64,000 nt of DNA from Vicugna vicugna. Taxonomy: Eukaryota. Positions 2,456 to 46,700 of the stretch are shown piece after piece (position 1 is the first letter of the stretch; the number at the start of each line of letters is the position of its first letter). The notes below the pieces were generated by a model. It was given only the letters and a program-made list of their open reading frames with translations. It searched no databases and was not told the DNA's origin. Both the position numbers and the translations under genes were made by a program. The stretch spans positions 344,982 through 408,981 of the forward strand of contig MU057576.1 of the NCBI GenBank assembly GCA_013265495.1. Reading direction: 5' to 3'.

Positions 2456-3559
2456 ATTAAATGGATGAAATTTCCTGTCTCAACAATAAAGTTACATCTT
2501 GATACCTGTCTATGAAACAAATATTCATTAAGCATACTATTAATCTTATTAATATATCTAATTAAGCCTGTTATTAATGACTACGGTTCTTGTCCTCTCA
2601 AGACTTACAGCCTAGTTCAGAAGATTATGCTTTCAGAAAACTGAGAACAAGTCGGGACAACATTTAACAATGTATTTAATCAACTATAATCAAATTTCAT
2701 AATGTATAATCCAGACAGACAGTTTCCTGGGTGGTCAAGTGAGGGAGAGGGTTGGGAGGAGTTAGAAGGTGAAGAGGGGAGAGGCAAAGGCAGAACTCTT
2801 CCCTTGAAGGGTGAGTGCACTGAAAGGCAGGCCATTAAGGTTGGGAGAGAAGAGGGGAATTATTATATCTGCTTTCATGGGGGATAAACTAATCTGAATG
2901 TGCTCCCTACTGAGTCTCTGCACTGGAGTATCAGTTGATGGAAATGGATGCCAGCTACACAGTTCACGTATAGTAATTATCATCATTATGAACACCAGGG
3001 ATTAACACTGACCTGTCAGAAGACCGTGTGAGTAATGGGCGTTTCCCAAACCTGAAGCAACTGCAATTCCTGGCGAATCAGCTTTGAGTTAAGAAGTTTC
3101 TGTTCTTTATGCTTTTTCTATTTTGAGCCTCTAAATTGCTATTCAGATTAATAAGGTCATGCATACTTCACCTAAGAGAAGAAGGTTTGCAGGGAGGTCA
3201 GCCTGCCCTTTCTGCCACATGTGCGCAGCCATGCGTGAGGCGCGAGCCAACTGTGAGTTAGGAGATTACGAAATTCTAGAAAGAAAACGACTGCCCCAAA
3301 AGATCGCCCCTAAAAAAGCCAGTTCACATGCCTGAAATGGCACTATTACATAGTATGCAGTGGTACCCAGCTCTTTCCTTACAAATATAAGTATTCCTGA
3401 AGAAGGCTACACTGAGTCTCTCATCTTTTGGTTTGAATGGGATTAGCAGTCACCTGAGGGGAGAGAAGGCATAGAAAGAGGAGGACAGGTCCCTGTCAGG
3501 AAAAGTAGGGGACAAAATAACTGGTCTTTTCTAAAGGGAAAAGCCTCCTGTCCCCGGAC

Positions 3560-4170
3560 TGCAGCGCCAGGACCAGTTCCTCCGCTTCTGCGGGCACCTG
3601 TCGTGTGCGGGAAGTCAGCGCGGCGGAGCCCGCCGCAGCCCGGCCCTGAGACCTGCGGGGTGGCTCGCCGGTCCCCCGGAGGGAGGGCTCGTGCGAGGAC
3701 CCCTGGCGGGACGCGCATCCCCGGCGGCGGCGGGTGTATTTATGTAAGGGCTTAAGGAATGCGGAGGGCCGGCCCTGGCGTGCAATTTGGCAGCGAAGGG
3801 ACTGATAACCCCCCAGGATATTGTTCAGAGCCCTGTCCCTGCCCCTACCCGGCGGAGCTCGCCAAGGCCTCTGCGCAGGCGGGGCAAAGGATGCTGCGGG
3901 TCCGCCCCACTGCGGGTCTCCTCGGGCCACGAGGCCTGCTCATGGGGAATTCCAAGTTCAGCTAGACTGGAGGGGTTTAAATGAATGCCATGCTTTCTCC
4001 GAAGTCGGAGTTCGTGGGTCTTATTCCTGTGTCTAACCCCAGTTCTCATGTTCTGTTTCCAATCTGCAGCCACACGGACTCTCCAGCTGGCGATCGACAC
4101 GCGTGCTGCCACCTCCAGGTGAAAAGGGGACACTGAGCGCACGGTAGCCGGACCGGCCGGTGACTGGAAG
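3560..4170. promoter_or_regulatory. Orphan CpG island / putative promoter
   Basis: High GC and CpG density against a CpG-poor background; GC boxes, TATTTAT at ~3737, TGATAA at ~3803; no recognisable coding exon. Confidence 0.7.
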
Positions 4171-4355
4171 GAGGGTTCCAGGACAGGCTGAAGTGTGTTC
4201 CAGATTACTGGAACTACTGGAATTACTGACGTTTAAATGCATTAATTCCTAAGAGCACAACAATTGATGAAAGACTTGATCTAGGCTCCACACATCCTCT
4301 GGCGGTTTCCCTTTGGTTTGTTTCTGCATTTTGTGGATTTGGAAGGGGATTGATG

Positions 4356-12482: not shown

Positions 12483-13953
12483 TTTTTTTATTGAAGTACA
12501 GTCAGTTACCATGTGTCAGTTTCTGGTATACAGCACAATGTCCCAGTCATGCATATACATACATAAATTCATTTTCACATTTTTGTATATATATATTTTG
12601 TTGTTGTTGTTGAAGTACAGTCAGTTTACAATGTGTCAATTTCTGGTGCACAGCACAATGCTTCAGTCATACATGAACATACTTTTTTTTCATTTTCATA
12701 TTCTTTTTCACCAGAAGTTACTGCAAGATAATGAATATAGTTCCCTGTGCTATACAGCATGAACTTGTTATTTATCTATTCTATATGTATCAGTTAGTAT
12801 CTGCAAATCTCTAACTCCCAATTTATCCCCTCCCACCCCCCTTCCACACTGGTAACCACAAATTTGTTCTCTATGTCTGAGTGTCTGTTTCTGCTTTGCA
12901 AATAGGATTCCACATATAAGTAATATCATATGATATTTTTCTTTCTCTTTCTGGCTTATTTTACTTAGAATGACGATCTCCAGGTCCATCTGTGTTGCTG
13001 CAAATGGCATTATTTTAGTCTTTTTTAAGGCTGAGTATTCCATTGTATAAATACACCACCACTTCTTTATCCAGTCATCTGTTGATGGACATTTAGGTGG
13101 CTTCCATGTCTTGGTTATTGTAAATAGTGCTGCTATGAATATTGGAGTGCATGTATCTTTTCGAATTAGGGTTCCCTCCAGATATATGGCCAGTGGGACT
13201 GCTGGATCATATTGTAAGTTTATTTTTAGTAGTTTGAGGACTCTCCATACTGTTTTCCATAGTGACTGCACCAAACTACATTTCCACCAACAGTGTAGGA
13301 GGGTTCCCTTTTCTCCACAGCCTCTCCAGTATTTATCATTTGTGGACTTTTGAATGATGGCCATTCTGACTGGTGTAGGGTGATATCTAATTATAGTGTT
13401 GATTTGCATTTCTCTGATAATTAGTGATATTGAGCATTTTTTCATGTGTCTATAGGCCATTTGTATGTCTTCATTGAAGAATTGCTTGTTTAAGTCTTCT
13501 GCCCATTTTTGGATTGGGTTGTTTGCTTCTTTTTATTATTATTAAGTTATACGAGCTGTTTATATATTCTGGAAATTAAGCCTTTGTCGGCTGCATCATT
13601 TGCAAATATTTTCTCCCATTCTGTAGGTTGTCATTTTGTTTTGCTCATTTTGCTGTGCAAAAATGTTTAAGTTTAATTAGGTCCCATTTGTTTATTTTTG
13701 CTCTTATTTCTTTTGCCTGGGTAGACTGCCCTAGGAGAACATTGCTAAGACTGATGTCAGATAATGTTTTGCCTATGTTTTCTTCTAGGAGATTAAAGTG
13801 TCTTATTTCATATGTAAGTCTTTGAGCCATTTTGAGTTTATTTGTGTGTGTGGTGTGGGGGAGTGTTCTAATTTCACCAATTTCTGTGCTGCTGTCCAGT
13901 TTTCTCAACACCACTTGCTGAAAAGACTGTCTTTTCTCCATTGTATATTCTTG
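12483..13953 (-). mobile_element. 5'-truncated LINE-1 (ORF2 C-terminus and 3' UTR) with an extra short copy of the 3' end at 12483-12585
   Basis: ORF2 peptides [16 protein letters not shown]...[18 protein letters not shown] and KINKWDLIKLKHFCTAK. Splits an L2 3' end; AGGGATTT occurs on both sides. Confidence 0.92.
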
Positions 13954-18267: not shown

Positions 18268-19300
18268 TCAACAGATGACTGGATAAAGAAGTTGTGGTAT
18301 ATTTATACAATGGAATACTACTCAGTGATTAAAAAAAAGAATAAAACAATGCAATTTGTGGCAATATGGATGGACCTGGAGATCACCATTCTAAGTGAAG
18401 TAAGCCAGAAGGAGAAAGAAAAATAACATATTATATAATTTATATGTGAAATCTAAAAAAAAAAAAAAGAATAAAGCAATGCAATTTGTGGCAATATGGA
18501 TGAACCTGGAGATCACCATTCTAAGAGAAGTAAGCCAGAAGAAGAAAGAAAAATATCAAATTATATAATTTATATGTGAAATCTAAAAAAAAAAAAAAGA
18601 ATAAAGCAATGCAATTTGTGGCAATATGGATGAACCTGGAGATCACCATTCTAAGAGAAGTAAGCCAGAAGAAGAAAGAAAAATATCAAATTATATAATT
18701 TATATGTGAAATCTAAAAAAAAAAAAAAGAATAAAGCAATGCAATTTGTGGCAATATGGATGAACCTGGAGATCACCATTCTAAGAGAAGTAAGCCAGAA
18801 GAAGAAAGAAAAATATCAAATTATATAATTTATATGTGAAATCTAAAAAAAAAAAAAAGAATAAAGCAATGCAATTTGTGGCAATATGGATGAACCTGGA
18901 GATCACCATTCTAAGTGAAGTAAGCCAGAAGGAGAAAGAAAAATATCATATTATATAATTTATATGTGAAATCTTAAAAAAAAAAAAAGACTAATGAACT
19001 TATTTACAAAACAGAAACAGACTTAATGGACATAGAAAACAAACTTACGGTTTCCAGTGGGGAAGAGGGTGGGAAGGGATAAATTGGGAATTCCAGATTT
19101 GCACATACTAACTACTATATATAAAATAGATAAACCACAAGTTTCTACTGTACAGCACAGGAAACTATATTCAATATCTTATAGTAACATACAATGAAAA
19201 AGAATATGAAAACAAATATATGTACGTATATGTATGACTGAACTATTATGCTGTGCAACACAAATTGACACATCATTGTAAACTGACTTGACTTCAATTT
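18268..19300 (+). mobile_element. LINE-1 3' fragment containing a tandem amplification
   Basis: L1 3' motifs ACAGATGACTGGATAAAGAAG...TGGAATACTACTCAG and ...ACTGTACAGCACAGGAAACTATATTCAATATC. Confidence 0.9.
18331..18990 (+). repeat. Tandem repeat, 130-bp unit x 5, L1-derived
   Basis: Unit ATAAAGCAATGCAATTTGTGGCAATATGG... starts at 18341, 18471, 18601, 18731 and 18861. Confidence 0.97.
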
Positions 19301-21538: not shown

Positions 21539-22603
21539 TGTGCACAACAAAAATGTGTGCAACAACCACCCCCCTCAACACACACACACACACACACAAA
21601 CACGCAGAGTTCCAACCCCAACTGCCCTTGCGGAGGATGTTTTAACATAAGAATAGATCATTACCAAGTTAGTAAAAATTCTGTTTATCGGAGTCAAGAG
21701 TTTTTCCGTCTGGTTATCCATCACTAAAAGGCTGGATGCTTCCCAATTCATTCTTTTTTTTTTTTTTTCCCAATTCATTCTAACACACAAGTGGTCCATG
21801 AAAAGAGCAGGTTTTGCATAGGGCTTGAAGCATGCTGCCTTTTCTTTGACGTTTCCAAGATCAGCAACTTCCCCTTCCCAGGTCGCAAAATCACCAACAC
21901 GAGATTCACCCCAAGAAACCGAGTCCGGCTCAGCAACAGAACGTCAGCGGGCTAACGGGGAAAACCTGTCCCGTCATCTGAATGGATGCTAGAAAGTTGT
22001 TTGACCCGATTCAGCATCCATCCTGATTCTCTTAGAGAAAAATATAAAACCCTGTTATAATCGTTTGAGATATAGAAGACTCCTTTCCTGCTATAAATGT
22101 ATTAGAAACCAACAAGAAGCATGAAAAACAATGGTGAAATCTTAAAGGCACTGCTATTAAAATCAAGTTCAGGTCAAGAATGAGCTGTTTCTGGGCTTGT
22201 TCCAGAAGTTCTAGCCAGTGTGTTGAAATAAGAAAAAGAAGAAAGAAACAAATAAATCATTATCCTCGGATGATATGATATGACTATCATATAGAGGACT
22301 CATTAAAATAAGAAATATCAGGCAACAGAATTTTAAGCAGCTAACAAAGATAATAGTATAGAACTACATGGATAATTGTGGGAAAGTGTCCAAGACAGAG
22401 TATTAAGTGGAAGAAATAGGCTTCAAAATAATATGAATTTATTTAAATATATATTTATATACTTATGCTGAATATATATATTGACTATATATTATGTAAA
22501 AAAGCTTAAAGGAAATTCATCAAAATATATTTAGAGATTGCATCTCTGGCCTGTGGGGTTCCAGGTGATTCTTACTTTCTATTTATTTAGAAAAGAACAT
22601 TTA

Positions 22604-25600
22604 GGCAATCACCTCACGTACCACAACCTCACCTAACCTCTCACCCCGCTCTGATACCCCCAACCCCGGGATGGCAGCGCCCGCCAGCCTTGCCGGCAGG
22701 ACCACAGGACGCCAGCCCCGCCGTTAGCCTGTGGTACTAGGCCCGCCGAGGCCTGACCCCCGGAGCCGGGACCCACCGTGCAGCCAGCCGCCTGCCTAGG
22801 CTGAGGGGCCACTCCCTGCTCACGCCCGTGGGGAGGACGCTGCTGTCCCTGGGGCTGGGGGCTGGAGGGGTGGGGGGCAGCCAGGGCGAGGAAGTTGGGA
22901 CCAGTGTTGGGAAAAAAGAAGCGGGACCGGGTTCATGAGCACCCCCTCCCTCCGTTTCCCCGGTCCTCCCAGGGTTTTAGGGGTCACAGTGAGGCGGGAA
23001 GCCCCATAAAAAGACAGGCAGGACCCCTAAGCAGGGCCACTGCTCTCCTGCCAGCACCATCCAGTTCCCTGGACCAGAGGCTGTATCTCACTTTTTGCCT
23101 CTGAAACGGCTTACTTACCCCTAAAATACTATTGGTTCCCTGAGCTAACTTCTGATTGGTTATTTCCTTCACTCCTGATTGGTTATTACTCTCACTTCTG
23201 ATTGGTCCACTTCCCCAACTTCTGATTGGTCCATTTGTAGTACTTCATTTGCATGGAGCTCACTCCTGATTGGTCACTTCTCTCACTCCTGACTGGTCCA
23301 TTCCCCTCACTCCTGATTGGTTATTTCTCTCACTCCTGATTGGTCTATTTCTACAAAGCTTGTTTCTGGTTGGCCAACTTCTGTTATACTTTATTTGCAT
23401 ATGATGTTGCAAAGTGTAAAACTGGCAGCCTATAAAGGTCTGTGTAAACGTACGGAGTCCAGAGTTTGGAGTGTTAACTACTGTGAGTCTGTAGGGGTAG
23501 TAAGTCTGAGTTTTGTAAGTTTCGGAGTGCTGCTTGGTTTTTCGCCCAGGTCCAAATTGCGGACACTATTAAGCTGTCAGACATTTTTTTGCAACAGGAG
23601 CAGAGCGCGCCCATCCGGGAGGTGGATGAATGTGGGAGAAAACGGAGAACATGACGATCGTGTACAACTTGGACACGTCGCAGGGGCTGATGGGGCAAAT
23701 CCAAACTCAGCTGGCTTACCCCCCTGCGGGAGAAAAGTAAGTCAGAAGCCTAAGAAGGAGCCCTGGAGAAGCAGTGGGGCTGCCAACCACAACAGCTGGA
23801 CAGCTGCAAAGAAGGTGAGGATCTCCTGTGCTGTGACCACTGCCCGGCCACCTTGCATCTTCAGAGCTGTGATTCTCCATTGGGTGAAGAGATGTTGCCT
23901 CCTGGGGAGTGGATGTGTGTTACCGATGCACTGTGTTTGCAGGAAGAAACGAGAGCAGAAAAAGGAGTTCGGCCATGCGAATGGTCTGATGGACAAATCT
24001 GGCAAACGGGACTTTATCCTCCTGCAGTAACACTGACTCGTTAGACACATCACCTAACAAAACTGAACTTAAGGCCATTGCCCGTGCCCGGATCTTGGAG
24101 AGGAGAGCCAGCCGGCCTGGCATGCCCACATCCAACGCCAGTACAGAGACCCCTACCTCTGAGCAGAATGATGTGGATGAGGAACCAGCGGCAACAGAGC
24201 CGGACTATGTGCAGCCCCAGCTAAGGCAGGCCTTTGAGCCGCTGACTGCTGCCGCCATGGGGGCAGAATCCCACCCAGTTTCAGTTGCCCAGTGAAATGA
24301 TTTGCACCACTGCACTACCAGGTTCTAGCAAGAGAAGAAGAAAGGAGGAATCCGCAGGAGAAAACATTAAGAAGACACAGCGTGAGTTAGATCATAATGG
24401 GCTCACTCCCCTACCAAAGTTCGCTACACCTGTAACAGGAGTTGCCACATGGTTCCTCTCATCCAGTGACTGTTGTCCCCTCCTGTTCCACATGGACTGC
24501 CTCGAGCCACCGCTTGGTGCCATGCCCCTGGGCAGACGGATGTGTCCAAATCACATCGAACATGTGGTGCTCAACTGGAAGAACACGACGCGGAGCAAAC
24601 CGTGCCAGGTGTTTTACCGTTTCAAGGACACCATTTCGCAGCACGTTGTAAAAATGGACTTCCTGAGCCGAATCCACAAGCACCCTCCCAACCGCCACGT
24701 GCTCCAGTCGGTGAAAAGAAGCTTGAAGGTTCCTGATGCTATAAAATCTCAGTACGTTTCCACTCCTCTCATTGCACCCGCCGCCATTCGGGATGGGGAG
24801 CTGATTTGCAGTGGGATGCCTGAGGAATCACAGACGCACCTTTTGAACTCTGAGCACTTAGCCACTAGGCAGAGCAGCAAGACTGACTCTGGTGGTGGTG
24901 CGCGCCAGTGCAGCATATTGAAACATTTATCTGCTAAGCAGATGCCTTCGCATTGGGACTCTGAACAGAGAAGGCTGATACTAAGCCTGTTACTGTGACT
25001 GATAGGTCAATCACCAACTCCCTGCAAACCGCTGACAAGGCACCTACACTTTTCCTTTACCGCGGGCCCTACTCCTCAGGGGTTAGCAGCTGGAACTCCC
25101 TGAGCTGCTCTCCACTCCCAACTCTGGAGGACATCAGCTGCAGTTCTTGTGCGGAAAAATCCAAGAAAGCCCCCTGTGGGGCTGCCAACGGGCCAGTGAG
25201 CACAGAGGGGAAAGCCAACGGCCCACACCTCTACAGCAGCCCCACTGATCCCACGGACGCCCGGCGACTTCCAGGCGCCAACACCCCCCTTCCAGGTCTC
25301 TCCCACTGGCAAGGCTGGCCCTGGCCCCTCATGCCACCAGCGGCTGGGGGGCTTCAGAACCACACCGTCGGTATCATTGTGAAGACAGAATGCCACTTGC
25401 CCCAGGTTTTGCCACCAGGGGAGTTTGGTTCCTGTCCTAAGCCTGCCCCCTTACATTCCCAACTCTTGTGCCAGCATTGAGAACACCAGCACTTTGCAAA
25501 GAAAGACTGTCCGATCACAGATAGGATCTCTGCTGACAGATTCAAAGCCACTAGGCTCACCCTCAAATGCCACCCGGGTGCTCACTCCCCACCAAGCTGC

Positions 25601-27494
25601 GGGAGATGGTAACTTGGCCAGTGATTCTGCTCACCAGCGCCATCATCAGGTGGCAAGGTCAGCCCAGCACATTATCCATAGGAAGCGCTTTAACTGTACG
25701 TATCCTCTTTTTTAGCCAACTCTACTGCCATGGTGGACCTCGAAAACTGAGCATTTATGGATGTCAGTGGAGAAATCGAGATAAATATGTTGGACTAGAA
25801 GCTGATCAAGTTTCTGGCCTTGCAGAGAATAATACATCAGCTTTTCCCCTCCCGTGTCCAAGCTTCACCAGGCAGTGTCGCGGTATATCCACTGGCTTCT
25901 GGAGGGGACACCACAGAGAAGCGCAGAGAAAGGAGGTCCAGGCCGGAGCTGTGTTCTACCCTCTCAGGGTTGGTAGGAGCTGTGAACATGTGCTATCAAA
26001 CCCTCTACGTCAGGACAGGAGCTGACGTGGACGTGTGCCTCACAAACTACGTCACTGTAACTACGTGTCCGGGAAACGCACTTGCATGCTCTACGATGAG
26101 AATACCAAACGTTATGAGCTGGTAAACTACAGTGAGCGCGGGACAGCGGTGGACGGTGAGTGTGCTGTATTCATGTGACTTACCTGAGAAGACCCCGCCA
26201 ACACCCCCCCCCCAAGCAGTATTGTTGCCAAAGTGCAGAGGGTCATCAGGCGCGGCCAGCACCAGAAACAGGATGAAGAGCCAAGTGAGGAGGCAGCCAT
26301 GATGAGCTCCCAGGCCCGGGGCTGCAGCCGGGCCCCTGCAACTGCAAAGCCAGCAGCCCGAGCTTGACGGGGGGGCAGTGGGGCCGGCTGGGAAGGCACG
26401 GCCTTGCTGCACCACGGCAGCTACATCAAGCTGGGGTGCCTGCACTTTGTCTTCAGCATCACTGAGTTTGCAACCACACAGCCCCAAAGGGAGGCTGGCC
26501 TGCTGCAGGTTGGGGTCTTGGCCGAGAATCTCTCTCTCAAGCCCCACCAGGGCCCTGTGCTGTGCTCCAACTCCGTTCCCTCGGACTGGCAGCTACCCCA
26601 TCCCACACCTGTCTACCCAACCCAAGACTCCTGCAATACAAAAATGTACACAAACCAAGCATGGGGTTTCTCTATACTCCACCAGAAACCCTTCAACTAC
26701 AATCACTGCATGAAGTGAAGAAAACCTTTTGACTGTTTTTTAAAAATCCTTTTTCTTTCCTTAAGTTCTAGGGGGCATTTGCACATATATTTGTACCCAG
26801 CGTTTCATGGGAAAGCGGCAGATAGAGCTGAAGAACAGCGTGGGCAGGGAGGGGAAGGCCAATGGTCTGGACACAAAACCGTTCCCCACCCACCTCCTGC
26901 TCCCTCCCCCTACCCACCGTTGTAAAAGAATCGGTAACTTGTTCTAGTTTGTGGCAGTGACAATAGTTTTATATTAAAAGAAAAAGGTACAGTTCTCATA
27001 CAGCAAAATCTATACAGTATCATTGTTTTATTTAATAAAAAGATCGCTACCCATGGCTCCCCCCCTCCAGGTGATTCTCCCTTTCTGCAGCGATTGCACT
27101 ACAGGGAGCTACTGTGTATTACGGACAAATGAGAACTGGATTCTTTTTCTGGCTGTGCATCTTATTTTATTTCAAATAAGGAAAATGTATTTGGATTTTG
27201 TGGAAATACATCTAGTAATGACATTTTTTCAATGTTTTTAAAAACTGTGTACAGTACTACATGTACTACGTGTTCTTCAAATTGTCCATTGTAGCAAAAA
27301 CGTTTTTGTCGTAAACCTGTTTTGTCTCCTTTTTTGTTCTCCTGCCACTCCTCTCCTCTTCCTCCCACCCCCGGTTCCCTCCTCCTCTCCCACCCCCGGA
27401 ACTAGTACCAATGTACATAGTAATTGTAATGTTTTAGACTTTACAGAAACTTTCCTGTATTCTGCATATGAAAAAACAAAGACTTCAAAAAAAA
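22604..27494 (+). pseudogene. PHF12: Processed pseudogene of PHF12 (PHD finger protein 12 / Pf1), with 5' UTR, CDS remnant 23630-26583, 3' UTR and A-rich tail
   Basis: Intronless run of PHF12 peptides: [57 protein letters not shown]...[47 protein letters not shown]...SNSVP. Many frameshifts; first stop TAA at 23738; A-tract at ~27470-27494. The 5' boundary is inferred from the abrupt start of GC-rich sequence; no clean TSD seen. Confidence 0.93.
22905..23596 (+). mobile_element. Solo ERV LTR (CCAAT-array type) inserted in the PHF12 retrocopy 5' UTR
   Basis: TGTTG...CAACA termini; 22990-23596 aligns by eye to 44091-44625; repeated TCCTGATTGG units; ATTTGCAT at 23247 and 23393; TATAAA at 23431. 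The left end is either 22905 or 22990. Confidence 0.85.
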
Positions 27495-29085
27495 TTTTTT
27501 ATAAAATACTTTGCTTAGTGAATGCTTTATAATAAGCATATTTATATAATTAAAAAACCAATAAGCTTTTTTTACCCCCAAGGACACGCACATTGGGTGT
27601 GCATGCAAAACTCATTCCAGGATCATTAGGATGAGTGGCTTTTCTCCTAAAGTGGTTAAAGTTTGTGATTCAAGGCTGCTTCCCAGCTCACCCTCACCTC
27701 CCTGAAAAGCTAGATTCGTCTGTTCTGCCTGGTCTCTTCTCTGAAGGAGAGCCCCAGGTCCATGGGTTCCAGAAAGGCCTGATCTGGGCCAGATTCCTCG
27801 GGTGACTGTTGCCCCTGGCGTCATCACCTGCACATCGTCCTAGCCCCATCCTAGCTGTTTGCAAAGGATTCCCAACCCTCTAAGGCTGTCCACCTTGGCT
27901 GAAGCTGAGAAGGCTCTTCCTTGCAGGCATCAGCAGAAGTCTTGTCTCCTCAATAGGTGGGTTTGGGGATCACTCTGGCAACGTCAGGCCTCCATATGCC
28001 AAGCTTCTTTGCCCCACTTCTGGGCTGAAGGTCATGGTCAGAGAGCATGCCAAGTCCAATAGCCTCAAGCCCTGTACTTGCTGCCATTGCCCAGCTCTAT
28101 GTGGGGCATCTGGTCCAGTTTCTGACTCTTCGCTGTGCACCCTGGACATTATAAGGAGGCCTCTGCTTGGTCTCAATGCCTGCAAGCAAGAGGACTTGAT
28201 TTGCTATCTCCCTAGTTCAGTTGAGTCATAACCTAGAAGCCCCTCCCCTGGAGCCTCTTCTGCCTCATACTCACCCTGCACCCCACCAGCTTCCCTCCTG
28301 GTCCAGAACCCACCACATCATCAGAGGGTTTTCAGGTCAGCTCTATAAAGCTGACCATCCTCACTCAAGCCTGAAGCAATCCCTTCAAACCGCTACACCG
28401 ATGGAGTAGTGAGTGATCAAGACCCAGGGTAACTCAATAGACTGACATCACACTGGTGTTGAGTATCTTGGGAATTCTTTTTAAAAGATTGCCATAATCG
28501 ATCCTCATCTCCGCAGAATCGGCTCCCTATCAGTCTGAACCAGGAAGTAACATACAAATACAAATGCCTTCAAATAGATTTGCTTTGAACTTAGTTAACT
28601 CTATACTCATTTCTGCCTAGCTTGGTTATTTGATTTCTGACTCCATAATATTTGAGAAAAGCAAACTAGGAAAGGGGAAAGCAGTAGCTATAAGGCAGGC
28701 ATCAGGGAGTTACAGCCCAAGAATGATCACATGTAAGAGTTGGAAAAATGTGAGCCCTCAGCAGGAGGAAGCCAACAGCCCTGTGTATCTGATATTACCA
28801 TAGAGCACAATAATGGATGCTTGTAACATAGCCCCGAGTCTCCCACAAACATGGGTCACATTCAGCATCCTCCCCAAGGCCACCTAGGTGTTTGCAAAGA
28901 ACTCCCAGACTTCTGAAGGCTGCCCACCTTGCCCAAATTTGAGAGGGCTCCTCTTCATGGCGTATCCATCAGCAGCTTTTGCACAACCACACTGAAGCAG
29001 CATGGGTCAGTTCTCATCATCTGGATGACTATTCTCGGAAACCAATCCAAATTTTTATTGTTGATAGTTATATACTGATACATTT

Positions 29086-43700: not shown

Positions 43701-46700
43701 ATAACCACTGATACTTTGAAAACACTTTAATGCAGAGCAAAAAGGGCCAGGAGCCCTCTGAGGGCAACAAGGAAAGATTAGAAAATCCCTTCCTTACAGG
43801 GTAGGGAGGGGAGACTTGGGTTTGTGAAAAGAATCCAAGCACTTTGGGGCCAGGAAGGCTTGGGTCTGCACACTTACTACTAGTAAGATCTCAGGCAAGT
43901 TAACCTTTCTCAGCCCTGAGTTCCTCAAATGCAGACTGAGGAGCCCACCACCTTCCACTCAGAGGGGAGCTAAGGAGGCCGCCCCAGGCAGGGCCTGGCA
44001 CATGGCTGCCATTCAACACGTGTTAGTTGCAGCTCCTTATGAACCATAAGGGGCCATAGGCTTGATCTGCTGCCATAGGTGGGGAGGGGGTAAGGCGGGA
44101 AGCCCCATGGAAAAGACCGGCAGGACCCCCAGGCAGGGCCACTACCTCCTGCCAGGACCATCCGGTTCCCTGGCCCAGAGGCTCTATCTCACTTTTTGCC
44201 TCTGAGGCAGCTTACTTCTAGGAAACTGGAACTTACCCCTAAAATTCTACTGGTTTCCTGAGCTCACTCCTGATTGGTCCATTTGTAGCACTTCATTTGC
44301 ATGGAGCACACTCCTGATTGGTTATTTCTCTCCCTCCTGATTGGTCCATTTCTACAAAGCTTGTTCCTAATTAGTCAACTTTTGTTATACTTTATTTGCA
44401 TATGATGTTGCAAAGTGTAAACTGGCAGCCTATAAAGGCCTGTGTAAGCCTACAGACGGGGTCCAGAGCTTGGAGTGTTAACTCCCTTGGGTCCACTGGC
44501 ATAATAAACCTGAATTCTCCAACTCTCCGAGTTCTGCTTGGTCTCTCGACGGATCCATGTTGCTGTCACAACTGAGTTGTAACACTAAGCTGTAACACTG
44601 AGCTGTGACACACTTTTCTGCAACAGGGGACAACCATAAAATGACATCCCATTCCCTTCCAGGTATGTCAGGAGGGGAAAAAAAAAATCAGGTTTGGGGC
44701 AAAGGTTCTGGCAGCAAACAGAGCAACAAATGAGGCAACCCTTAGCTCCAGGGGGGAAAAGTTGATATAGAAGCCAGAACTGTAATGAAAACTTTCCCTA
44801 AAAAGGTGTCATACACAAAACACTCTAAAAGCAAAACTGTGACAGAAGCTGTGTCATGGATACCCTGAGAATGGGGGAAATGTGGTGGAGGAGACAGTTA
44901 TGTATATTTTGGAAGCATTACTTGGTGTGTTTAGGCAGGGGGTGGGGGTGGGGGGAGTCATAAATATTCTAGAAACATGGAAAGGACCACAGATAACCAT
45001 GCAAGGACCTAGTGGTGGATGGAGGTAAAGTCCCAAAACGTTCTCAGGGATCAATGACAGTCAATTTCACATATTCTGTTGCACTGTTCATATAATAAAA
45101 TATCCCTGTATGTGCAACTGTTTGGCAAATTATTACTGAATAGATCAAGCCAGAAAACATGAAACACACATCTGCTATTGGCAAAAGCGGATGTGCAAAA
45201 GAGAGTGACGCCCACAGTGTCGAGCTCAGCGAACAAGCTGGTTAGAAAAAAAAGACCAGGCATAATTCAACCCAATTTTTAAAAATACGTATATATGTCT
45301 GCAGGCACAGGGAAGACTGAAGGAACTACAGCTCTACAGTGCTACTGATGTTTGTTTCTGACCAATGAAATTACAAGTGATTTTCATGTTCTTTGTACTT
45401 TTTTATATGCACTGAATTTTTTTTTTTTTTTTGTAGTTAGCATCTTTTCTTTTTAGAACCTTCCAAATTAAGACACTTGCATTTTGGAAATATAAGAGGA
45501 AAAATAATAAGATTGAAAGCCACCAAGATGAAGAATCACAGTCAAAGAAAAATCACAATTACGTGTGGAAACAGACCTCTACCTGCTCAGAGGTAGAGCC
45601 TGTGAATGTAGGCCGCCCACATATGGTAACAACCCAACACAGACAGGCTTGGATATGAGCCATGATGGTGACTATTTCACTAAACGCTGGGGGATTCAAA
45701 TTTTCACTCTGGTAACAAAACGCTCACTTTCACACAAGGTTTACAATAGAAAGTTGCCATTTACTTGCTTTAAAAAGAGGGTTTTAAACATGACCTGGCC
45801 TTCCTTCCTCTACTCCTTTTTCTTCTCACAGTCAGAGCTTCACAGGAGAGACAGCTCCTGCCCTAATAGTCTCCATTTCCTTGTCTAAGGATTAAGCCAG
45901 CTGTATATATTTTTTCTTTTTAAACAGCCTAATACCAGGACATAATTATAGATCATTGGAGACGCAGGGTTTACTCTGCTTTTTCCACTGCTGGCCATAT
46001 AGGATTCCTGTAACTATCTTGTTTGGGTGTGTGAATGCTAGTATTGGGCACACACACATGGATTTAAGAGAAAAGCTTGACCCTAAAACGCTGGCAACAC
46101 CCTAGTGCATTGGGAACACATGCAATACTCCAGGACAGATGCAATAATCACAAGATGCAATCAGCCCAAAAGGAGACAATGAAAACACAAGATGGGCTGT
46201 CAAAGAGAAAGAGCAAAAGCTCCCTTCTTCTGTTCTTGATAAAAGCCCAATTTATTACTGGATGTGATAGAGAGGACCAAAGATAACTGATCACTGTCTC
46301 CAGCTTGGGACCTTGGGTCATGGCACTGTGCACTCACAGGAGGGGACACTGGTGGAGGAGAAGGTCCGGGGGAGCTCAGTTTGAGATACGCTGATTTTGA
46401 GATTCCTGTGGCACACTGAATTGGAGATGTCTGGAAAGCAGCTGGATGTGAGGTCTGTAGCTCCAGATAATGGATGAGAAGTATCAAAATACAGTGGACA
46501 CAGAACCCCTGGGGCTGGCCGACATCCCAATTACACAGAATGCAAGAGAAGAGGATCTTGGGTGGAGCTCCAAAACTGAAAGGATCAGCAGAAGACAAAA
46601 ATCCTACAGGGAAGACTGAGAAGGAACTGCGAACATCCTTGGGCTCCTGTTAATGTTACTGTCAAAACATCTGAATTTTTCCAAACTGGAATACTTCAAA

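What the first reader, a model, noticed from the sequence alone, without database searches (positions are those of the whole stretch)
22905..23740. LTR promoter with a degenerate poly(A) signal sits 33 bp upstream of the PHF12 retrocopy ATG, in sense orientation
Seen: the solo LTR splits the retrocopy 5' UTR and ends at 23596; the PHF12 ATG is at 23630. The LTR keeps TATAAA (23431), two octamers and eight ATTGG boxes. Where the sister LTR has ATAATAAACC (44501), this copy reads GTAGTAAGTC (~23497). Established: solo LTRs can act as promoters for retrocopies; NF-Y binds CCAAT and POU factors bind ATTTGCAT. Inference: LTR transcripts could read through ~4 kb of PHF12-like RNA including the 3' UTR, possibly in germline or early embryo, giving a candidate regulatory RNA.
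Basis: partly seen in the sequence, partly recalled or inferred. Interest (0 to 1): 0.7.

Follow-up and report, generated by a model that had tools for sequence, protein, structure and literature searches.

The report
Solo LTR inside dead PHF12 retrocopy
A leftover retroviral promoter sits just in front of a long-dead copy of the PHF12 gene, a known kind of arrangement that can make a non-coding RNA, but nothing tested shows that this one is switched on or does anything.

Summary
The anatomy is as described. A 692-bp solo LTR (22905-23596) ends 33 nt before the PHF12 ATG, in sense, with TATAAA, two octamers and eight ATTGG boxes, and without the sister's AATAAA. (1) The sister LTR has the same TATA, both octamers and three ATTGG, so these are family traits. 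(2) The missing AATAAA is not a point loss. It lies in a 49-nt block with 20 differences against 46 of 439 elsewhere. The two LTRs also differ at the 5' end, in repeat number and in U5, so the change cannot be polarised. (3) That block carries three moderate splice-donor-like hexamers, which could route an RNA past the retrocopy. (4) The retrocopy is dead: stop after 36 codons, about 20 frameshifts, about 9.5% change at second codon positions. (5) No listed RNA run held it at high share (weak, tissues unknown, no reads laid). Closest known: LTR 'pseudogene recycling' (PMC5538554). Most likely a neutral nested fossil, silent or leaky.

The parts
22600..22904 (+). G+C-rich left flank, probable 5' part of the PHF12 5' UTR (left limit approximate)
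   Evidence: 70% G+C, CpG o/e 0.51; identity with the parent's 5' UTR inferred, not tested
22898..22904 (+). left copy of a 7-nt target-site-duplication-like repeat
   Evidence: 1 mismatch to 23597-23603
22905..23596 (+). solo LTR, 692 bp, TG...CA; no internal ERV sequence seen next to it
   Evidence: 422 of 488 aligned columns identical to the sister LTR
23148..23352 (+). 23-bp tandem array (8.9 copies) holding 7 of the 8 ATTGG boxes (the eighth is at 23131)
23247..23254 (+). octamer ATTTGCAT (also in sister, 44295)
23393..23400 (+). octamer ATTTGCAT (also in sister, 44394)
23431..23436 (+). TATAAA; predicted start about 23455-23463; this copy is 4 nt shorter than the sister between TATA and R
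   Evidence: alignment; start position inferred
23480..23528 (+). diverged G/T-rich R block: no AATAAA, three GTRAGT hexamers (23483, 23500, 23515)
23597..23603 (+). right copy of the 7-nt repeat; first bases of the remaining 33-nt 5' UTR
23626..24030 (+). first ATG after the LTR: 134-aa frame-mosaic ORF with no Pfam family
23630..23740 (+). PHF12 ATG and the 36-codon ORF that it still opens
23630..26583 (+). intronless, full-length but disabled PHF12 coding sequence (about 20 frameshifts, 3 in-frame stops, 785 of 969 codons identical in residue)
26584..27494 (+). probable 3' UTR with ATTAAA 26973, AATAAA 27034 and an 8-nt A tract at 27487-27494 (tail remnant, inferred)
44057..44625 (+). sister solo LTR in a SEMA4F intron, antisense to that gene; 5' end uncertain (homology starts near 44085); keeps AATAAA at 44503 and a folding R/U5

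Best explanation
Two fossils, one inside the other. A full-length PHF12 mRNA was retrocopied into DNA downstream of SEMA4F and has decayed neutrally since (decay shown; L1 as the agent inferred). Later an endogenous retrovirus inserted into its 5' UTR in sense and was reduced to a solo LTR (order inferred from the flanking 7-nt repeat). The LTR still carries the standard promoter of its family (TATA, octamers, inverted CCAAT array). It is most likely silenced in somatic tissue and at most leaks when its family is derepressed in germ cells or early embryos (inferred). Any RNA would be non-coding in effect (36-codon PHF12 stub, 134-aa mosaic ORF) and without selected function. The missing poly(A) hexamer is part of a diverged R block, most simply a subfamily difference plus later decay, not an adaptation of this locus.
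For: ORF dead: stop after 36 codons; 20 frameshifts and 3 stops in a frameshift-aware alignment to P0006. Neutral decay: second codon positions changed at 38 of 390 A/T and 22 of 236 C/G sites among 738 of 969 codons kept away from indels, while camel and bat PHF12 differ at 3 of 426 residues. CpG loss: of 39 Arg codons 11 read CGN, 9 CAN/TGN, 12 AGR, 7 other. Promoter motifs are shared with the sister. The two LTRs differ at the 5' end, in ATTGG number (8 vs 3) and in a U5 13-bp array found only in the sister, as subfamilies would. None of the 24 runs listed is an RNA run with half or more of the 432 words (weak). Mouse: only 5.4% of lowly expressed retrocopies carry H3K4me3, and the authors read low-level expression as possible noise (PMC4772013, passages).
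Against: The promoter core is intact, with more ATTGG boxes than the sister. The R block is far more diverged than the rest (20 of 49 vs 46 of 439, p 4e-7; 0 of 5000 scan permutations) and holds the only cluster of three GTRAGT within 200 nt on either strand of the window; neutral point decay alone does not explain that. The RNA negative is weak: only part of SRA is served, six places were kept for RNA, tissues are not shown, four raw RNA runs were unindexed, and no reads were laid. Most mammalian retrocopies show some transcription, above all in testis (PMC4772013, passages).
Confidence: 0.72

Rival explanations
1. One reading: NF-Y and a POU factor drive the LTR in germ cells or at genome activation. 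With no AATAAA in R, polymerase reads through unspliced to 27034 or 27549, giving a robust 3.6-4.1-kb sense PHF12-like lncRNA that may compete for regulators of the parent's 3' UTR.
For: Geometry and motifs. 78 of 842 ERVL LTR first exons gave transcripts with processed-pseudogene sequence, and sense copies without coding capacity become lncRNAs (PMC5538554, passages). MER41_BT elements open in bovine 8-cell embryos are enriched for POU5F1 and NFY motifs (bioRxiv 2019.12.12.874479, passages). Donor-like sites could further suppress 3' processing through U1, as in foamy virus (PMC3694450).
Against: No RNA run at high share among those listed (weak). About 9.5% neutral divergence from the parent erodes shared regulatory sites. 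A sense copy cannot pair with the parent mRNA, so the endo-siRNA route described for antisense copies does not apply. The regulatory step has no evidence at all: I put it at about 0.03 within this rival.
Confidence: 0.12
2. The LTR acts as promoter plus short first exon: transcription starts near 23460 and splices from 23483, 23500 or 23515 to a downstream acceptor, either the weak AG at the LTR end (23597) or further on. Part or all of the retrocopy is skipped, and the RNA may run on toward the SEMA4F 3' end in antisense.
For: Three GTRAGT in 38 nt, none in the sister; 34 of 20000 dinucleotide shuffles of 23446-23596 reach three, and 0 of 200000 random mutations of the sister block do (motif chosen after seeing it). 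23514 matches TGTAAGY, the motif used to plot ERVL LTR donors (PMC5538554, section 4).
Against: All lack G at -1 and match a recalled 11-letter donor consensus at only 6, 7 and 7 places; 552 of 3018 plus-strand GT sites score 6 or more and 180 score 7 or more. The acceptor at 23597 has 12 of 20 pyrimidines and an upstream AG. In-LTR donors are rare outside MaLRs: 4% (23 of 536) for RLTR10 (PMC13408016, passages); LTR12 splice sites are called uncommon (PMC11853044, passages). No spliced read was examined.
Confidence: 0.1
3. The diverged R block, including the lost AATAAA and the donor-like hexamers, is an assembly error or a private allele of the assembled animal.
For: The differences are tightly clustered and one-sided: at the 23 differences in 23480-23545 this copy has G or T 20 times. 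Even the best runs lack 9% or more of the sampled words.
Against: The block is gap-free and in register with the sister, and 13 of its 20 differences are transitions. 16 runs from 6 studies hold 0.74-0.91 of the words of 23431-27510, so the stretch as a whole is well assembled; but the LTR is only 166 of these 4080 nt, so this does not settle the block.
Confidence: 0.06

Closest known systems
'Pseudogene recycling' by ERVL/MaLR solo LTRs in oocytes and zygotes (Franke et al. 2017, PMC5538554; passages and section 4 read)
   Same: A solo LTR inserted at an already integrated processed pseudogene; sense orientation without coding capacity predicts a lncRNA; a TGTAAGY donor-like motif lies in the 3' part of the LTR.
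   Different: Those cases rest on RNA-seq transcript models, and here none is shown. This LTR looks ERV1-like rather than ERVL (recalled resemblance, not classified by a call), and it sits inside the retrocopy's own 5' UTR.
LTR12/ERV9 solo LTR promoters with tandem CCAAT repeats bound by NF-Y (review PMC11853044; passages)
   Same: U3 built from a variable number of tandem repeats, each with a CCAAT box; variable U5 repeats.
   Different: Repeat unit is 23 bp here against about 41 bp; two octamers here; no sequence comparison with LTR12 was possible, so this is an analogy only.
Bovine MER41_BT LTRs beside ERV1-1_BT, open at genome activation (bioRxiv 10.1101/2019.12.12.874479; passages; its supplementary Figure S9 not seen)
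   Same: ERV1-linked LTR in an artiodactyl with POU5F1 and NFY motifs.
   Different: Chromatin and RNA data exist for cattle; homology to this LTR was not tested.
Transcribed processed pseudogenes in mammals (Carelli et al. 2016, PMC4772013; passages)
   Same: Intronless retrocopy that could recruit a nearby proto-promoter; testis is the likeliest place of expression.
   Different: No intact ORF, no purifying selection and no expression shown here.

Membership tests
Processed pseudogene of PHF12 | Intronless copy of the spliced coding sequence | tested here: met
   All 1004 codons of P0006 map colinearly on 23630-26580
Processed pseudogene of PHF12 | Disabled ORF and neutral decay | tested here: met
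   36-codon ORF, 20 frameshifts, 3 stops; 9.3-9.7% change at second positions
Processed pseudogene of PHF12 | Poly(A) tail remnant and target-site duplication | tested here: inconclusive
   8-nt A tract at 27487-27494; only A/T-rich 9-10-mers with mismatches as TSD candidates
Solo ERV LTR | TG...CA termini and U3-R-U5 signals | tested here: met
   TG 22905, CA 23596, TATA; poly(A) hexamer present in the homologous sister
Solo ERV LTR | Target-site duplication flanking a single LTR | tested here: met
   7 nt with 1 mismatch abutting both ends; longer than the 4-6 nt that I recall as usual
Solo ERV LTR | Dispersed family with many copies | tested here: inconclusive
   One more copy in the window; no genome held; no true copies in viral or metagenome contigs
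ERV1 class / named camelid LTR family | Match to a curated repeat-library entry or linked ERV1 internal genes | not testable with these tools
   No repeat library or genome available; the label ERV1-like is recalled
LTR-recycled pseudogene (active LTR-initiated transcript) | Solo LTR upstream of a retrocopy with a usable orientation | tested here: met
LTR-recycled pseudogene (active LTR-initiated transcript) | Transcript starting in the LTR and containing pseudogene sequence | tested here: inconclusive
   No listed RNA run with half or more of the words; tissues unknown; no reads laid
LTR-recycled pseudogene (active LTR-initiated transcript) | Open or unmethylated LTR with NF-Y/POU binding | not testable with these tools
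   Needs ATAC, ChIP or bisulphite data; CpGs are split evenly between the two LTRs (4 only here, 4 only in the sister, 3 shared)
Functional retrogene | Intact ORF under purifying selection | tested here: not met

The most novel reading that the evidence does not exclude
After insertion, this LTR's R region was remodelled in one 49-nt block from a folded poly(A) module into a cluster of U1/splice-donor sites. That turned an ERV1-like solo LTR into a MaLR-style promoter-plus-first-exon, kept across camelids, which drives a germline or genome-activation lncRNA through or over the PHF12 retrocopy and toward the 3' end of SEMA4F in antisense.
Probability: 0.05. Interest if true: 0.6.

Novelty: new member of a known kind. 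Interest (0 to 1): 0.18.

Why it matters
As it stands, it is a tidy example of a nested fossil and one more candidate for LTR recycling of a pseudogene, a class already described with transcript data in rodents. If starts at 23455-23465 were found, it would add a camelid case with a locus-specific, easily mapped transcript (about 9.5% diverged from the parent). The one odd feature is the R block: if other copies of the family lack it and other camelids share it, it would be a rare, datable case of an LTR trading its poly(A) signal for splice donors after insertion.

Tried and rejected
Whole-genome search: no genome is held for this window, so family copies could not be counted. LTR motif scans: 0 hits in viral contigs, 0 in the first metagenome scan, 10 in the second, and all 10 of 10 matched over the 18-21-nt seed only, so they are chance. 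Sequencing runs: four RNA-type rows of organism C held 0.05-0.07 of the words. Four raw RNA runs of organism A were unindexed and untested. No reads were laid on the locus, so starts, joints and the letters of the R block remain open. Protein traces of the locus: 0 of 5 ORF sequences in the collection; 0 of 316 candidates scored for the 237-aa frame across the LTR junction; 0 Pfam families for 3 of 3 retrocopy ORFs. Rfam: 0 matches in 22900-27700. An inverted 13-nt likeness between the R block and U3 reached 46 of 2000 shuffles (post hoc, dropped). A clean TSD for the retrocopy was not found. A provirus between the two LTRs is rejected: the 20 kb between them holds the retrocopy and SEMA4F exons. 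Literature: PHF12 + pseudogene + camel gave 1 paper, unrelated by its title (listing only); alpaca + endogenous retrovirus + LTR + camelid gave 2. Passages of one of them (PMC8605555) give ERV1 counts and ages but do not name this family; its supplements were not opened and may do so. PMC5494522, PMC5408686 and PMC9733328 were read as passages and add background only.

Full report
Setting. The window holds SEMA4F on the minus strand, from a first exon near 59.2 kb to a stop at about 37176 (translations; Sema, PSI and Sema4F_C hits). The finding lies about 10-14 kb past that stop, on the plus strand, so it points toward the SEMA4F 3' end. The organism is not given. No whole genome is held.

Observation. 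All coordinates hold. The LTR runs from TG at 22905 to CA at 23596, 33 nt before the ATG at 23630. That ATG is PHF12 Met1. TATAAA (23431), two octamers (23247, 23393) and eight ATTGG (23131-23339) are present, and 23497 reads GTAGTAAGTC where the sister reads ATAATAAACC at 44501. Seven of the ATTGG lie in a 23-bp array of 8.9 copies. A 7-nt repeat with one mismatch abuts both ends, as expected of an insertion into existing sequence. That the left flank is the parent's 5' UTR is likely from its composition but was not tested against parent DNA.

The retrocopy is dead. The PHF12 ATG opens 36 codons, and an out-of-frame ATG 4 nt upstream opens a 134-aa mosaic with no Pfam family. A frameshift-aware alignment to a 1004-aa mammalian PHF12 (P0006) covers the whole coding sequence without introns, with 785 of 969 residues identical, 20 frameshifts and 3 stops (some paired shifts may be alignment artefacts). 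In 738 of 969 codons away from indels, second positions changed at 38 of 390 A/T and 22 of 236 C/G sites, whereas camel and bat PHF12 differ at 3 of 426 residues. This is neutral decay of about 9.5%. Outside one block the two LTRs differ at 46 of 439 columns, 10.5% summed over both copies. If the two are of similar age, the LTR arrived when the retrocopy already had roughly half of its lesions, so it never drove a PHF12 protein. This is inference, and it fails if the sister is much younger.

The promoter motifs are family traits. The sister LTR, in a SEMA4F intron, has the same TATA box, both octamers and three ATTGG. CCAAT repeat arrays of variable length are a known U3 design (LTR12; PMC11853044, passages). 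CpGs are split evenly between the copies (4, 4 and 3 shared), which gives no sign that this copy escaped methylation. Intact motifs show potential only.

The poly(A) argument. The lost hexamer lies in a gap-free 49-nt block (23480-23528) with 20 differences, against 46 of 439 elsewhere (Fisher p 4e-7; 0 of 5000 permutations reach 20 in any 49 columns). The sister's R/U5 folds well (z -3.0, 2 of 200 shuffles; its U5 repeats contribute), and this copy's does not (z -0.1, 85 of 200). The copies also differ at the 5' end, in repeat number and in U5. They are therefore probably different subfamilies, and two copies cannot say whether the block is inherited, arose in place or is an assembly error. 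I found no third copy. Loss of the signal is also not needed for read-through: retroviruses get past an intact 5'-LTR signal by donor-bound U1 or by weak sites (PMC3694450, abstract and Background), and solo LTRs carry promoter and poly(A) site together at insertion yet serve as first exons (PMC5538554, section 4).

The same block holds three GTRAGT hexamers (23483, 23500, 23515), absent from the sister, and it is the only such cluster in the window. Shuffles reach three in 34 of 20000 trials, but the motif was chosen after seeing it. One site matches the TGTAAGY motif used for ERVL LTR donors. Against this, they match a recalled 11-letter consensus at only 6-7 places, and 180 of 3018 plus-strand GT sites score 7 or more. 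If the LTR fires, these sites could splice past the retrocopy instead of reading through it.

Expression. For 23431-27510, 16 of 24 listed runs held 0.74-0.91 of 432 words: 13 of organism A and 3 of organism B, from 6 studies. Eleven are marked as probable DNA, and five have no kind on record but are of the same genome-like size. So the retrocopy is real and shared by two species labels; the LTR is only 4% of that query, so its sharing is not shown. No RNA run held half or more of the words. Germline or embryo expression remains untested.

Mechanism and odds. Most likely (0.72) this is a neutral nested fossil, silent in soma and at most leaky in germ cells or embryos. A robust unspliced sense lncRNA (0.12) or a spliced LTR first exon (0.10) remain possible, and an artefactual block is least likely (0.06). 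A read-through RNA would end near 27034 or 27549, giving 3.6-4.1 kb. Being sense, it could not form the double-stranded RNA that makes antisense recycled pseudogenes regulatory (PMC5538554, passages).

Comparison and novelty. It would work like 'pseudogene recycling' by solo LTRs (78 of 842 first-exon LTRs in PMC5538554), and its motif set recalls bovine MER41_BT elements open at genome activation (bioRxiv 2019.12.12.874479, passages). It meets the structural tests for a processed pseudogene and a solo LTR. It fails the test for a retrogene and has not met the defining test of a recycled pseudogene, which is a transcript. Searches showed no paper on this locus; supplements of PMC8605555, PMC5538554 and the bovine preprint were not seen and could bear on the family's name and activity. 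Verdict: new member of a known kind, activity unproven, interest 0.18.

Noticed in passing
window 23480-23528: Diverged, G/T-biased, gap-free R block with three GTRAGT hexamers; its origin (subfamily, local change or assembly error) is unexplained.
   Followed up: partly
window 22898-22904 / 23597-23603 and 44050-44056 / 44626-44632: Both LTRs can be read with a 7-nt flanking repeat with one mismatch, longer than I recall as usual for ERVs. The sister's case needs a TA start at 44057 and may be chance.
   Followed up: partly
window 44562-44611: 13-bp tandem array (3.8 copies) in the sister LTR's U5, absent from the LTR at 22905.
   Followed up: no
window 23737: A fourth GTAAGT overlaps the stop of the 36-codon ORF at the first frameshift of the retrocopy.
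   Followed up: no
window about 22400-22590 and 27495-27560: A/T-rich flanks of the retrocopy resemble the two halves of an old L1 3' end (recalled, not tested), which suggests insertion into an older L1.
   Followed up: no
window 18331-18994: 130-bp tandem array, 5.1 copies at 97% match, of an L1 3'-end-like segment (the L1 label is recalled from the related ORF2-like frame at 12771-13532).
   Followed up: no
window about 3400-4250: G+C-rich, CpG-island-like stretch with no gene identified.
   Followed up: no
window 37176-59200, minus strand: SEMA4F exons; the sister LTR lies in one of its introns in antisense.
   Followed up: partly
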